A stretch of 64,000 nt of DNA, from NCBI RefSeq assembly GCF_003018115.1, contig NZ_CP027457.1; one strand, given 5' to 3'. This document shows, piece by piece, positions 18,001 through 21,000 of this stretch. This DNA is from Escherichia coli. GTDB taxonomy: Bacteria > Pseudomonadota > Gammaproteobacteria > Enterobacterales > Enterobacteriaceae. Position 1 is the stretch's first letter. Every line of letters begins with the position of its first letter. The position numbers are program-made.

Positions 18001-21000
18001 GGGAGTTTTCTTAACGCCGCCACGCGATCACACCGACTGAGTGCATATTCTGTCAGCAATTCTGTTGCCCGCTCTCTGTCATTCATACTGATGCCCATTT
18101 TCCCAAGGAACGCAGAAAACCCCATCTCAGCCCGATTCTGTGTCATGCCCTGCGCGGCCATCACATCAGTAATACTCAGCGCATCTTTTGACGTTGAGGC
18201 CGATGCATCAGTCAGGCCGGGGGATTTTGGGGAGTAGTATTTCGGTAAATCTTCCAGTTTCATTTTTTGGCCTGCCCTTCATGCATTATTTGGTAAATCT
18301 TCACGCCAAGTCGCCCACCCGTAACGGGCTGACCACGCACCACATGAATTTCATCAAACTGCTCATCATCAATGAGTACTCCCGCATGCGTCAGCGCATC
18401 CAGCAACGCTTTCAGGATATTGTCCAGGTCACGACGACGCTTATCCGGCGGCTCGGCAATAATCTTTATCACCAGCCTTCCGGACAGATGTAATTGCAGG
18501 CGCTGCTGGCGAACAATAAGCGCCACCTCCCGGCGATAACGCTCACCGGCTTTTGATATAAAATATGTGCTGCCACGACGTCGCCAGTAAGTGTTCACCG
18601 TCGGCGGCCAGGGCAAAACAAACTCTGTACGCATCAGTCACCTCCTTTACCCAAGTACGCCTGTTGCAAAGGCGTGATCAAGAAAACGAAAAATCAAATC
18701 AACCTGGGAACCATACTTTTCTTCGAACGCCAGCGGATCTGCATGAAGTTCGTTGTGATGTTCCCGGCACAGCGGTAGCGTGAAAATATCGTGGGCCTTT
18801 GTTCCCATTCCTCCCTGACCATGACCAATCAGGTGATGTGGATCGTCAGCTGGCTTACCACAACATGCACACGGCTGTGTCTTTACCCAGCGTGTGTATT
18901 TTTCGTTGGCCCAGCGGCGACGTTTGGGCCGCTTCATGAAAGATTCAGGGGACTCCGGATCAACGGTAACGCTGACAACTGTTTTTTCCTGTGGCGTGGT
19001 TTGTTGCTGGTGGGCGTGAGGCGGTGGTGCTATGTTTTTTGTCCGCTGCTTCAGGATGCTGGAGGCGGTCAGCTCTCCCGATATGATGTCGCTCTCACGG
19101 TACACGGAGCGGATTTTTTCCGCACGTAACCCCAGAGAACGACGTAATACGGCCTCCGGTAGCGCGTCCGCCACCTGATTGCGGACCGCCCACCAGGATA
19201 ATTCAGCCAGCGACAGCTCCCGCTCCTGTGTGCCATTCATTGCGTGACGTATGACGTCAGTCATCCAGGCTGTCAGGTTTTGATGAGCAAGTTGCTCGAG
19301 TGATTCGGATGTCTGGTCACGCAGCTGGTTGTCGCAGTGCCAGCACAACACCATTGCGCCGGTACCATAACGGTGAATGACGGTTTCGCTGTGATGATAA
19401 TCGCCGTGTGGCCACTGGCAGGATTTAATATGGCGCAACAGCCAGTCAGACAATGCACCAGCACCACCAGCAGCACGAATCACCCGTGCGTTACTGAAAA
19501 ATGGCAGTAATGATTTATCCTCCGCCAGCGGCTGGCGAACGGCAGGGACGACTCCGGACGGCAGATCGCGCATGCTTTTCGGTTCAGGCTCCACCAGCAC
19601 TCGAGGGTTATGAAATACTTGCATGGATTCACGGCCCGGCCTAAGGACCACCAGCCCGAGTTCCGGTACCAGAACAGGTCGAAGCAATATCCGCACGTTA
19701 CCTCCAGATCCGTTGCTGGTATGTGCGGGATGGGCGCGGTAGGCGTTCGGAATAAGGGAGCCTGACATAGATTATCCAGTGACGATAATCGAGGCTGAGG
19801 GCTTTCTTAATCTCGTATCCGCGTCTGCGGTAGTTCTGAATCAGCCACTCGGCCTGCTCTTCGGTGCAGGGGTCGTGCTGATACCAGTCAGATTTGAACG
19901 CATGAGAACGCCGCCTGTGCCGGATGGCAAGGTCGGTATCAGAATTGTGAAATTTGGTTTTGTGCGCCATCTGTTTTCTCTGCTGGCGCAGCAGGTGCCA
20001 GTTGTTCAGGCTGGCGTGCGGCAATATTGTCTCTGATTTCTGTTGTCGTCAACAGGCAGCGTGCTATCATCGAATAGTGTTCTATCCTACTCCGTGAGGT
20101 TTACCATGCGTACAACCCAACAATTCAGCATTACATTAACTAACGAAATGGCTGACATGGTGCGCGCCCGTGTGGCTTCCGGTGCCTATGCTTCAGAAAG
20201 CGAGGTCATTCGTGAAGGGCTTCGCGCACTGAATGAGCGCGATAAAGCAATCGAAGCGTGGTTAACGCATTCAGCCGCCCCCTCTCTTGATTCTATCCGC
20301 GAAAATCCAAACAACGGACGCTCCATTTCACAGGTTCGCGCCGCGATTCGATCCGGGAAGTAATCTGCATGACATATGAAGTCATCATTACTCCTGAGGC
20401 CGAACAACAAATAATCAACCTGCACAGATATATAACGGAGAAAGCAGGGAACGTCATTGCTGACAATTATGCCAATGCGCTTCTTGATTATCTTGATGGG
20501 TTTTCTACATTCCCGCATCGGGGCAATAAACGCGATGATATTCGCCAGGGGATGCGGGTAACTCATTTCCGCCACAGAACGATTATTGCTTTTGCCGTTG
20601 ATGGCAGAAAAGTCTTTATTGTCGGTATCTATCATGGTGGGCAAAGTTATGAAACCGATTTCTTATAAATTTTTACCCACATCATTCCGGTGGTAGAATA
20701 AACCATCCGCCCCCTCTCTTACTGGCGGATTCGTAGGCTATATAAATCAAAGATCCCGGCTCATGTTTGTGTCGGGATCTTTTTTCGGCGATTTATCCCC
20801 AGCGGCAAATCGAATACACCACCAGCGCCACCGCCATCGCAATTCCTACCGTGGTGAATGCCTCAGGCCAGGTCATCGATTCACCTCCTGCTCAATATTT
20901 TTAAGGTCATTTTCCGCATACAGTATTGCTGTCCTGGCTGCTCGTAACCGGGCTTTGGCGTTTTTCTCTTCACGTTCAAGTTTTGCCACAGCTTCACGAA

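What the first reader, a model, noticed from the sequence alone, without database searches (positions are those of the whole stretch)
20025..20786. ParD/ParE-like toxin-antitoxin island inserted in opposite orientation in the nin region
An RHH antitoxin (86 aa) and a ParE/RelE-fold toxin (99 aa) form a two-gene operon on the plus strand with their own promoter-like sequence and a bidirectional terminator, embedded among minus-strand nin genes. It is a typical moron that could stabilise the prophage or act in phage defence.
Basis: partly seen in the sequence, partly recalled or inferred. Interest (0 to 1): 0.5.

Follow-up and report, generated by a model that had tools for sequence, protein, structure and literature searches.

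The report
ParD–ParE toxin–antitoxin cassette in Stx prophage
This is a real but ordinary two-gene ParD/ParE toxin–antitoxin operon, already named as such in public annotation, that occupies a spot in a Shiga-toxin prophage of E. coli where related prophages carry other toxin–antitoxin genes.

Summary
On the + strand lie parD (20106-20363, 85 aa, not 86) and parE (20369-20668, 99 aa). They have their own extended -10 promoter-like site and a hairpin plus T-tract terminator, and they sit among minus-strand genes between replication gene P and antiterminator Q of an E. coli Stx2 prophage.

ParD passes the curated NCBIfam ParD model. ParE matches Pfam ParE_toxin end to end. Its AlphaFold model (pLDDT 91.5) matches 23 solved ParE-clade chains (TM 0.72-0.83) ahead of any RelE, YoeB, YafQ or HigB chain.

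It is a cassette replacement rather than an insertion into an empty site. The same slot upstream of rem-ydfU holds hokD in every other prophage sampled, and hokD-relE-relB in K-12 Qin.

The cassette is in 374 of 5426 complete E. coli genomes and on none of their plasmid records. RefSeq and PHROGs already name it. No experimental work on this lineage was found.

Toxicity, gyrase targeting, prophage stabilisation and phage defence all remain inferences. Verdict: interpretation supported, novelty low, interest low.

The parts
20021..20791 (+). Variable cargo: the parDE cassette as delimited against hok-carrying relatives
   Evidence: Homology to phages 606R7 and 689R5 stops at 20020 and resumes at 20792. 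Homology to phage ArgO145, where the cassette sits at a different genomic site, runs 20023-20878 at 97.8%.
20040..20055 (.). Inverted repeat CTGTTG-tcgt-CAACAG overlapping the -35 hexamer; candidate ParD operator
   Evidence: Found. The core GTCGTCAA is invariant in the E. coli, Yersinia and Enterobacter cassettes, which are only 68-71% identical overall. Binding is inferred, not tested.
20043..20070 (+). Sigma-70-type promoter-like site: TTGTCG, 16-nt spacer, TGcTATCAT (extended -10)
   Evidence: 9 of 12 matches plus TG. GTGCTA at the -10 is conserved across genera.
20073..20099 (+). Conserved 5' leader (AATAGTGTTCTATCCTACT, containing ATAG-tgtt-CTAT) and Shine-Dalgarno GAGG
   Evidence: Nearly invariant across the five cassettes in alignment A3. 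GAGG at 20096-20099 lies 6 nt before the ATG.
20106..20363 (+). parD, ribbon-helix-helix antitoxin, 85 aa
   Evidence: RefSeq names it ParD family antitoxin, WP_001260977.1.
20369..20668 (+). parE, ParE-clade toxin, 99 aa, intact
   Evidence: RefSeq names it RelE/ParE family toxin, WP_000220600.1.
20669..20748 (+). 3' untranslated segment with a second promoter-like site (20672-20699) and hairpin 20705-20730
   Evidence: It is found in 309 of the 5426 genomes, fewer than carry the cassette, and under no annotated feature in the rows shown. It is not conserved in the Yersinia or Enterobacter cassettes. No Rfam match.
20749..20785 (.). Two-way intrinsic-terminator-like hairpin (AAAGATCCCG...CGGGATCTTT) with T6 on the + strand and TTTGATTT on the - strand
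   Evidence: Folding of both strands. It lies inside the cargo.

Best explanation
The locus is an intact type II ParD-ParE toxin-antitoxin operon carried as a self-contained cassette in a lambdoid Stx2 prophage of E. coli.

Shown: the two genes, their family and fold, the cassette boundaries, and the recurrence of the cassette in temperate phages.

Inferred from the anatomy and from what is established for ParDE systems:
- The operon is transcribed in the lysogen from its own extended -10 promoter. It runs in the same direction as the LexA-type repressor gene and against the early-right (cro to Q) lytic transcript.
- ParD dimers, alone or with ParE, bind the conserved palindromes over the -35 and the leader and repress the operon.
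- The C-terminal part of ParD wraps and neutralises ParE.
- When ParD is no longer resupplied (loss or deletion of the prophage segment, or a transcription shut-off) it is degraded. Free ParE then poisons DNA gyrase, causing replication arrest, DNA damage and SOS.

The net effect would be addiction-type retention of this prophage segment, and possibly exclusion of infecting phages. The hairpin ends parDE transcription and insulates it from the converging early-right transcript.
For: Family and fold:
- TIGR02606 ParD scores above its curated cut-off. Pfam gives ParD_antitoxin 2.3e-7 and ParE_toxin 3.5e-10 over the full model.
- PHROG families annotated antitoxin and toxin match at 1.7e-56 and 3.4e-43.
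- The AlphaFold model has pLDDT 91.5 and pTM 0.82, with the ParE layout of one N-terminal strand, two long helices and a three-stranded sheet.
- The 23 best Foldseek PDB matches are all ParE-clade toxin chains, including Mesorhizobium ParE, Mtb ParE1 and ParE2, P. aeruginosa ParE, V. cholerae ParE2, O157 ParE2 and Caulobacter ParE1, plus the differently named PfiT and PrpT. TM scores (normalised to the query) are 0.72-0.83. RelE-type chains (YoeB, YafQ, HigB2, RelK) reach only 0.40-0.65 at E > 1e-3.
- A profile of 136 homologues matches ParE sequences in the PDB down to 5e-12. It does not match K-12 RelE (hhalign probability 1.9%).

Operon:
- There is a 5-nt gap between the genes. The same parD-parE pair occurs in Yersinia prophages and an Enterobacter island.
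- Promoter, palindrome and leader blocks are conserved across genera.
- parD is under purifying selection (dN/dS 0.057).

Toxicity, indirect evidence only:
- Database variants of the toxin are recurrently frameshifted or truncated.
- O157:H7 strain PA8 keeps parD followed by only a 5-codon parE stub. Toxin-first decay of this kind is expected of an active toxin.

Precedent:
- ParE toxins inhibit gyrase and induce SOS (PMC6614396).
- The ParE-family pair ParESO/CopASO is essential for keeping prophage CP4So. ParE-type systems of O157:H7 prophages are thought to stabilise them (PMC12548467).
Against: - No experiment on this lineage was found. Searches for the RefSeq accessions returned no papers.
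- The toxin hits no NCBIfam model. Its best single-sequence match in the PDB is weak (E 0.007).
- The promoter is only a 9-of-12 consensus match.
- Gyrase targeting is inferred from family membership alone. From my own knowledge, not every ParE-fold toxin has been shown to act on gyrase.
- Neither protein matches any PADLOC defence model.
- A chromosomal or prophage toxin-antitoxin pair may be a selfish passenger that brings the phage no benefit.
Confidence: 0.8

Rival explanations
1. The primary role is abortive-infection or superinfection-exclusion defence. An incoming phage shuts off host transcription or triggers ParD loss, and freed ParE then arrests the cell or the invader's DNA replication, protecting the lysogen population.
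For: The cassette travels in temperate phages of E. coli and Yersinia, always as an independently transcribed unit pointing against the flanking early genes. That is the usual layout of prophage accessory and defence genes. Toxin-antitoxin systems are increasingly reported as phage-defence elements (review PMC12548467).
Against: Neither protein matches any of the 5027 PADLOC defence models. The papers I read gave no report of a ParDE pair acting as a defence system. Nothing in the sequence separates this role from addiction.
Confidence: 0.2
2. The cassette is a selfish or decaying passenger with no benefit to phage or host. It persists only because losing it is penalised, and it is on the way to inactivation.
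For: Frameshifted and truncated toxin variants are common in the databases. An orphan parD with a parE stub sits in O157:H7 strain PA8, and 37 genomes fall in the identity band represented by the four antitoxin-only hits listed. The slot exchanges different toxin-antitoxin cargo freely.
Against: The window copy is intact in both genes. The exact proteins each occur on at least 1000 contigs. parD is under strong purifying selection. The regulatory blocks are conserved across genera.
Confidence: 0.25
3. The toxin is not a gyrase poison but a RelE-like ribosome-dependent mRNA endonuclease, since PF05016 and the RefSeq name cover both kinds.
For: RefSeq names it only 'RelE/ParE family toxin'. The shared superfamily fold gives weak matches to YoeB, YafQ and HigB.
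Against: The 23 best structural matches are all ParE-clade, while RelE-type chains reach TM 0.40-0.65 at E > 1e-3. The profile matches ParE but not RelE sequences. The partner is a ParD-type ribbon-helix-helix antitoxin. The C-terminal region (IVGIYHGGQSYE) aligns with the IVRIVHGARD-type ParE C-terminus of 6X0A.
Confidence: 0.07
4. The cassette modulates the prophage's own induction. Stress-triggered ParD loss frees ParE, gyrase poisoning induces SOS, the LexA-type repressor cleaves itself, and the Stx prophage is induced. Conversely, antiterminated early-right transcription running antisense through parDE shuts it off during lytic growth.
For: The prophage repressor is a LexA-family protein on the same strand as parDE. 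ParE expression induces recA and lexA in E. coli (PMC6614396). parDE converges with the cro-to-Q transcript. The solved PfiT toxin of a PfiAT complex is among the closest folds; from my own knowledge, PfiT/PfiA comes from the Pf4 prophage and affects its production.
Against: This is entirely inferential, and no data exist for this lineage. The same cassette also sits in the early-left region of ArgO145 and of Yersinia prophages, so its position relative to Q is not conserved.
Confidence: 0.1

Closest known systems
Canonical ParD-ParE type II toxin-antitoxin systems (RK2 ParDE; Caulobacter ParD1-ParE1, PDB 3KXE; Mesorhizobium opportunistum ParDE, 5CEG/6X0A)
   Same: A ribbon-helix-helix ParD is encoded directly upstream of a roughly 100-aa ParE. 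The ParD N-terminal domain aligns to 3KXE ParD1. The toxin model superposes on these ParEs at TM 0.74-0.83 (query-normalised), and the family profile matches 6X0A at 5e-12.
   Different: Sequence identity to any solved ParE is only 13-24%. The Pfam ParD model matches only residues 6-51, so the C-terminal neutralising segment is lineage-specific. This lineage is chromosomal and prophage-borne, with no hit among the plasmid records of 5426 E. coli genomes. Gyrase inhibition is untested.
ParESO/CopASO of Shewanella oneidensis prophage CP4So, and PaaR-PaaA-ParE of E. coli O157:H7 prophages
   Same: Both are ParE-family toxins encoded in prophages, with a demonstrated or proposed prophage-stabilising role (PMC12548467). 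O157 ParE2 (5CZF/5CW7) is a structural neighbour at TM about 0.8.
   Different: From my own knowledge, the antitoxins there are CopA-type or PaaA-type and the Paa systems have a third regulator gene. Here the antitoxin is a classical ParD that should also be the repressor.
relB-relE-hokD locus of the K-12 cryptic prophage Qin
   Same: It occupies the homologous slot immediately upstream of rem-ydfU-Q. The ydfU/rem flank of the window is 83-84% identical to Qin, and the homology ends at the same junction. The toxin belongs to the same superfamily.
   Different: relBE is co-oriented with the neighbouring early-right genes and encodes an mRNA interferase, with a type I toxin alongside. parDE is inverted, belongs to the ParE clade, and replaces hokD.
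ParDE-I of IncI/IncF resistance plasmids (PMC6614396)
   Same: It is an enterobacterial ParDE whose ParE toxin causes filamentation and SOS and stabilises its replicon.
   Different: It is plasmid-borne. A sensitive nucleotide search found nothing similar to the window cassette on E. coli plasmids, apart from one 1.4-Mb record filed as a plasmid.

Membership tests
ParD antitoxin (PF03693 / TIGR02606) | N-terminal ribbon-helix-helix DNA-binding domain of the ParD type | tested here: met
   TIGR02606 scores 53.8 bits against a cut-off of 46.2. Pfam ParD_antitoxin gives 2.3e-7 over residues 6-51. Sequence matches to solved ParDs 3KXE, 7YCV, 7B22, 6X0A and 8C24.
ParD antitoxin (PF03693 / TIGR02606) | C-terminal segment that binds and neutralises the cognate ParE | tested here: inconclusive
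   Residues 52-85 are not covered by the Pfam or PDB matches. Homologues do cover about 95% of the protein at roughly 60% identity. An attempt to set up a fused ParD-linker-ParE model failed at the alignment step.
ParD antitoxin (PF03693 / TIGR02606) | Encoded immediately upstream of, and co-transcribed with, the toxin gene | tested here: met
   There is a 5-nt gap between the genes on the same strand. The same pairing occurs in ArgO145, Yersinia and Enterobacter.
ParD antitoxin (PF03693 / TIGR02606) | Autorepression by binding an operator in its own promoter | tested here: inconclusive
   A palindrome over the -35 and a second one in the leader are conserved across genera. Binding cannot be tested with these tools.
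ParE toxin (ParE clade of the RelE/ParE superfamily, PF05016) | Full-length match to the ParE_toxin profile | tested here: met
   PF05016 gives 3.5e-10, residues 5-94 on model positions 1-89 of 89. No NCBIfam model matched.
ParE toxin (ParE clade of the RelE/ParE superfamily, PF05016) | ParE fold: N-terminal helical hairpin packed on a three-stranded antiparallel sheet | tested here: met
   The AlphaFold model has pLDDT 91.5, with helices 9-26 and 28-46 and strands 62-67, 71-78 and 81-89. TM 0.72-0.83 to the top 23 solved ParE-clade chains.
ParE toxin (ParE clade of the RelE/ParE superfamily, PF05016) | Closer to ParE than to the RelE/YoeB/YafQ/HigB mRNA interferases | tested here: met
   The top 23 Foldseek matches are ParE-clade, while interferases give E > 1e-3 and TM 0.40-0.65. 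The profile matches ParE chains in the PDB. hhalign against K-12 RelE gives probability 1.9%.
ParE toxin (ParE clade of the RelE/ParE superfamily, PF05016) | Poisons DNA gyrase; toxicity relieved by the cognate ParD | not testable with these tools
   Only indirect signs exist: recurrent frameshifted toxins and an orphan parD with a parE stub. Family precedent is in PMC6614396.
Moron (independently transcribed extra gene unit in a phage genome) | Own promoter and own terminator | tested here: met
   A promoter-like site at 20043-20070 conserved across genera. A hairpin plus T-tract at 20749-20785. Both lie inside the cargo. These are sequence-level findings only.
Moron (independently transcribed extra gene unit in a phage genome) | Flanking genes are adjacent in related phages that lack it | tested here: not met
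   No empty site was found. All six other prophages examined carry hokD in the slot, with relBE as well in K-12 Qin. This is cassette replacement.
Known anti-phage defence systems (PADLOC-DB 2.0) | Match to a model of a known or candidate defence protein | tested here: not met
   No family matched either protein at E <= 0.01.

The most novel reading that the evidence does not exclude
The position just upstream of rem-ydfU-(rusA)-Q in lambdoid prophages may be a dedicated exchange slot for toxin-antitoxin cargo: hokD, hokD plus relBE, or parDE. In SOS-inducible Stx prophages the ParE version might act as a stress-to-induction relay. ParD loss would free ParE, gyrase poisoning would induce SOS, the repressor would cleave itself, and phage and Shiga toxin would be released. 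The orphan parD copies in O157:H7 Stx2a prophages would then act as cross-immunity against that toxin.
Probability: 0.1. Interest if true: 0.55.

Novelty: already known. Interest (0 to 1): 0.2.

Why it matters
As it stands, little.

Two points have modest value.

First, the comparison gives clean cassette boundaries. It shows that the slot next to rem-ydfU, which holds the textbook relBE-hokD locus in K-12 Qin, swaps type I and type II toxin-antitoxin cargo among E. coli prophages. That is a convenient natural system for asking why temperate phages keep such genes at that place.

Second, a probable gyrase poison inside an SOS-inducible Shiga-toxin prophage is worth one simple experiment. Gyrase-targeting drugs are known inducers of Stx phages (my own knowledge). 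If ParE activation raised Stx release, that would bear on pathogen biology.

Tried and rejected
- **Frame error.** The first translation at 20107 was out of frame. The correct ATG is at 20106.
- **Fused complex model.** I set up a ParD-linker-ParE alignment to model the complex. MAFFT placed the ParE homologues on the ParD half (10-20% identity), so I dropped it. The tool also reports no inter-chain contacts.
- **RNA families.** An Rfam gathering-threshold search of the whole window and an E-value search of 19900-21000 found no known RNA in or beside the cassette. The single SNORA12 hit (E 0.81) is noise.
- **Defence models.** PADLOC gave no match.
- **Plasmid origin.** Only short, 69-84% identical matches to the parD ribbon-helix-helix region turned up on alpha- and beta-proteobacterial and Pseudomonas plasmids, plus one 1.4-Mb E. 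coli record filed as a plasmid. The cassette is not plasmid-derived in any recent sense.
- **Antisense ORF.** The 152-aa ORF at 20186-20644 (-) is open in E. coli and Enterobacter but broken in Yersinia (longest stretch 59 codons). I rejected it as a gene.
- **Composition.** GC content gives no clear boundary for the cassette.
- **Literature.** Searches for ParDE in Stx phages, for ArgO145, for the RefSeq accessions and for hokD slot descriptions found no paper that characterises this lineage or this slot.
- **Borrowed annotation.** I first used the RM10466 annotation for the whole window. The window matches that genome only over 13243-31371, at 99.7%, so statements about RM10466 beyond that stretch do not apply to the window.
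Full report
**What is in the sequence.** Two ORFs lie on the + strand between 20021 and 20791. The first starts at ATG 20106, 6 nt after GAGG, and ends at 20363. The second runs 20369-20668 and encodes 99 aa, starting 5 nt after the first stops.

Upstream is a sigma-70-like site: TTGTCG, a 16-nt spacer, then TGcTATCAT at 20043-20070, with the TG of an extended -10. A 6-bp inverted repeat, CTGTTG-tcgt-CAACAG (20040-20055), overlaps its -35 hexamer.

Downstream, a 10-bp hairpin (20749-20782) is followed by T6. It also forms on the minus strand, followed there by UUUGAUUU. The automatic terminator scan missed it because its loop is longer than 8 nt.

**Surroundings.** All neighbours are on the minus strand. 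They are a rem-like gene (19698-19970), ydfU/DUF968 (18647-19768), rusA, the antiterminator Q gene (17442-18263), three tRNA genes and stx2 on one side. On the other side are a 131-aa ORF (20873-21268), further small genes and replication gene P.

The LexA-type prophage repressor gene is on the + strand, like the two ORFs.

The window matches the Stx2c prophage of E. coli RM10466 at 99.7%, but only over 13243-31371. The window's own prophage ends with an integrase gene (31627-32745) next to potC/potD.

**Family assignment.**
- The antitoxin passes the curated NCBIfam ParD model: TIGR02606 scores 53.8 bits against a cut-off of 46.2. It matches Pfam ParD_antitoxin over its ribbon-helix-helix part, residues 6-51, and the ParD chains of 3KXE, 7YCV, 7B22, 6X0A and 8C24. 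It has 2657 homologues, many of them about 60% identical over 95% of its length in distant Proteobacteria.
- The toxin matches Pfam ParE_toxin over the whole model at 3.5e-10. It hits no NCBIfam model.
- PHROGs has dedicated families for both, annotated 'antitoxin' (1.7e-56) and 'toxin' (3.4e-43).
- RefSeq already names the identical proteins 'ParD family antitoxin' and 'RelE/ParE family toxin'. Each exact sequence is on at least 1000 contigs.

**ParE or RelE?** PF05016 and the RefSeq name cover both gyrase poisons and mRNA interferases, so I tested which clade the toxin belongs to.

A search of 1.84 billion representative proteins gave 1158 relatives at E <= 0.001. A 136-sequence alignment of them gave an AlphaFold model with pLDDT 91.5 and pTM 0.82. 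The model has one short N-terminal strand, two long helices and a three-stranded sheet.

The 23 best Foldseek matches in the PDB are all ParE-clade toxin chains. They include Mesorhizobium ParE, Mtb ParE1 and ParE2, P. aeruginosa ParE, V. cholerae ParE2, O157 ParE2 and Caulobacter ParE1, plus the differently named PfiT and PrpT. TM scores normalised to the query are 0.72-0.83. YoeB, YafQ, HigB2 and RelK chains follow at E > 1e-3 with TM 0.40-0.65.

The family profile matches ParE sequences in the PDB down to 5e-12. Against K-12 RelE it gives an hhalign probability of 1.9%. The toxin is therefore a ParE-clade protein. That it poisons gyrase is inferred from the family (PMC6614396), not shown.

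**Boundaries and mobility.**
- Against phages 606R7 and 689R5, homology runs 19002-20020 and resumes at 20792. Promoter and terminator both lie inside it.
- Phage ArgO145 carries the same cassette (20023-20878, 97.8% identical) at a different genomic site. There it sits in the early-left region near int, again pointing against its neighbours.
- A 69%-identical toxin, paired with its own ParD, sits in prophages of Yersinia enterocolitica, between ERF-type recombination genes and sieB or the repressor. It too points against the genes on its integrase side.
- An Enterobacter relative lies in an island with an integrase and IS elements.
- The cassette is in 374 of 5426 complete E. coli genomes. 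Every one of its 387 copies is on a chromosome record and none on a plasmid record. In 319 genomes the match extends beyond the cassette into the window's flanking sequence.

**Regulatory sequences.** The cassettes are only 68-71% identical in nucleotides between genera. Even so, three blocks are invariant or nearly so in E. coli, Yersinia and Enterobacter:
- GTCGTCAA, which spans the -35 and the palindrome;
- GTGCTA at the -10;
- the leader AATAGTGTTC(T/A)ATCCTACT, which contains ATAG-tgtt-CTAT.

This supports a real promoter with ParD operator sites. parD is under purifying selection, with dN/dS of 0.057 against Yersinia.

**The slot.** The left junction at about 20020 is recurrent. In the rows sampled from the 4491 E. 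coli genomes that share the ydfU/rem flank, homology mostly stops at window 20013-20020.

What lies beyond that junction was hokD in all five other hok-type prophages I opened (606R7, 689R5, strains 19-5, Ecol_656 and O157:H7 F7349). In K-12 Qin it was hokD, relE and relB.

So parDE does not interrupt two genes that are adjacent elsewhere. It replaces a type I toxin cassette in a position that also holds the classic relBE locus. No empty site was seen. The 'moron' label therefore fits only in the loose sense of an independently transcribed accessory unit.

In RM10466 the near-identical early region belongs to a prophage integrated beside rspB/ynfA. From my own knowledge, that is where Qin sits in K-12.

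**Signs that the toxin is active.** The evidence is indirect. Several database variants are frameshifted at the AFAVDG region or truncated. In O157:H7 strain PA8, a parD 86-87% identical in DNA is followed by only a 5-codon parE stub (MAYEVPH*). After the stub come a small lipoprotein-like ORF and a HigA-like helix-turn-helix gene. Losing the toxin while keeping the antitoxin is the decay pattern expected when the toxin is harmful.

**How it most likely works.** By inference, the operon is transcribed in the lysogen and repressed by ParD or ParD-ParE at the conserved palindromes. ParE is held inactive by the ParD C-terminus. If ParD supply stops, ParE acts, most likely on gyrase, giving replication arrest and SOS.

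The outcome would be retention of the prophage segment, as reported for the ParE-family pair of prophage CP4So and proposed for O157:H7 prophages (PMC12548467). Phage exclusion is a possible alternative or addition.

The hairpin terminator separates parDE from the converging early-right transcript. During lytic growth, antiterminated transcription would run antisense through the operon.

A defence role is not supported by any PADLOC match, though that does not exclude it. A link between ParE-driven SOS and Stx-phage induction is conceivable but purely speculative.

**Verdict.** The system is a standard ParDE pair that public annotation already recognises. I found no experimental study of this prophage lineage. 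Interest is low. The toxin-antitoxin slot next to rem-ydfU and the orphan parD in O157:H7 prophages are the only mildly new points.

Noticed in passing
window 20793-20876 (-): A 27-aa hydrophobic ORF (MTWPEAFTTVGIAMAVALVVYSICRWG) whose ATG overlaps the TGA of the upstream 131-aa ORF (ATGA), preceded by AGGAGG. tblastn finds it in 93 phage records at 59-100% identity, usually at the end of ea22/DUF551-type gene arrays. It has no PHROG match. It forms the conserved right-hand junction of the cassette: present next to hok cargo in 606R7 and 689R5, and next to parDE in ArgO145. It may be a small membrane peptide, or a recombination linker between modules.
   Followed up: partly
window 20672-20785 (+): A small-RNA-like unit in the parE 3' region: a promoter-like site (TTTACC, 16-nt spacer, TGgTAGAAT) at 20672-20699, a hairpin at 20705-20730, then the terminator hairpin and T6, predicting a transcript of about 80 nt. 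It has no Rfam match. It is found in 309 E. coli genomes, fewer than carry the cassette, and is absent from the Yersinia and Enterobacter cassettes.
   Followed up: partly
L009 3066-4043 (E. coli O157:H7 PA8, NZ_CP145946.1): An orphan parD (85 aa, 85% identical in protein; the C-terminal part is the most diverged) followed by a 5-codon parE stub, a 90-aa lipoprotein-like ORF (lipobox TSGC) and a HigA-family HTH gene. It occupies the same early-left site that holds the intact cassette in ArgO145. Four antitoxin-only hits of this kind were listed, representing a band of 37 genomes. It may be an anti-addiction antitoxin.
   Followed up: partly
window ~20013-20020; L001, L003, L005-L008: A recurrent recombination junction just upstream of the rem-like gene. 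Beyond it, related prophages carry hokD, and K-12 Qin carries hokD-relE-relB, so the position behaves as an exchange slot for toxin-antitoxin cargo. Only six other loci were inspected.
   Followed up: partly
proteins P0011-P0013, P0024, P0029-P0031, P0034: Frameshifted or truncated versions of the toxin are frequent in the protein databases. Several share a frameshift after AFAV, in the A-run of gatggcagaaaag. One entry (P0028) is a ParD-ParE read-through fusion.
   Followed up: no
window 20186-20644 (-): A 152-aa ORF antisense to parD and parE. The frame is open in E. coli and Enterobacter but broken in the Yersinia cassette. Most likely a by-product of the sense-strand coding sequence.
   Followed up: yes
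window 15427-15641 (-), 28148-28199 (+), 50736-50804 (-), 17047-17298 (-): Rfam matches elsewhere in the window: STnc100 sRNA just downstream of the stx2 genes, DicF in the early-left region, naRNA4 in host DNA, and three tRNA genes (Arg-tct, Arg-tcg, Met/Ile-cat) between Q and stx2.
   Followed up: no
L004, L016, L017 (E. coli RM10466, NZ_CP028381.1): In RM10466 the near-identical early region (99.7% over window 13243-31371) belongs to a prophage beside rspB/ynfA. Its large terminase gene is truncated next to the integrase of a P4-like element carrying primase, Icd-like and BRO-N genes. A second element about 20 kb away has a DUF927 protein plus its own capsid, decoration and small-terminase genes, resembling a capsid-forming satellite. 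None of this applies to the window itself.
   Followed up: no
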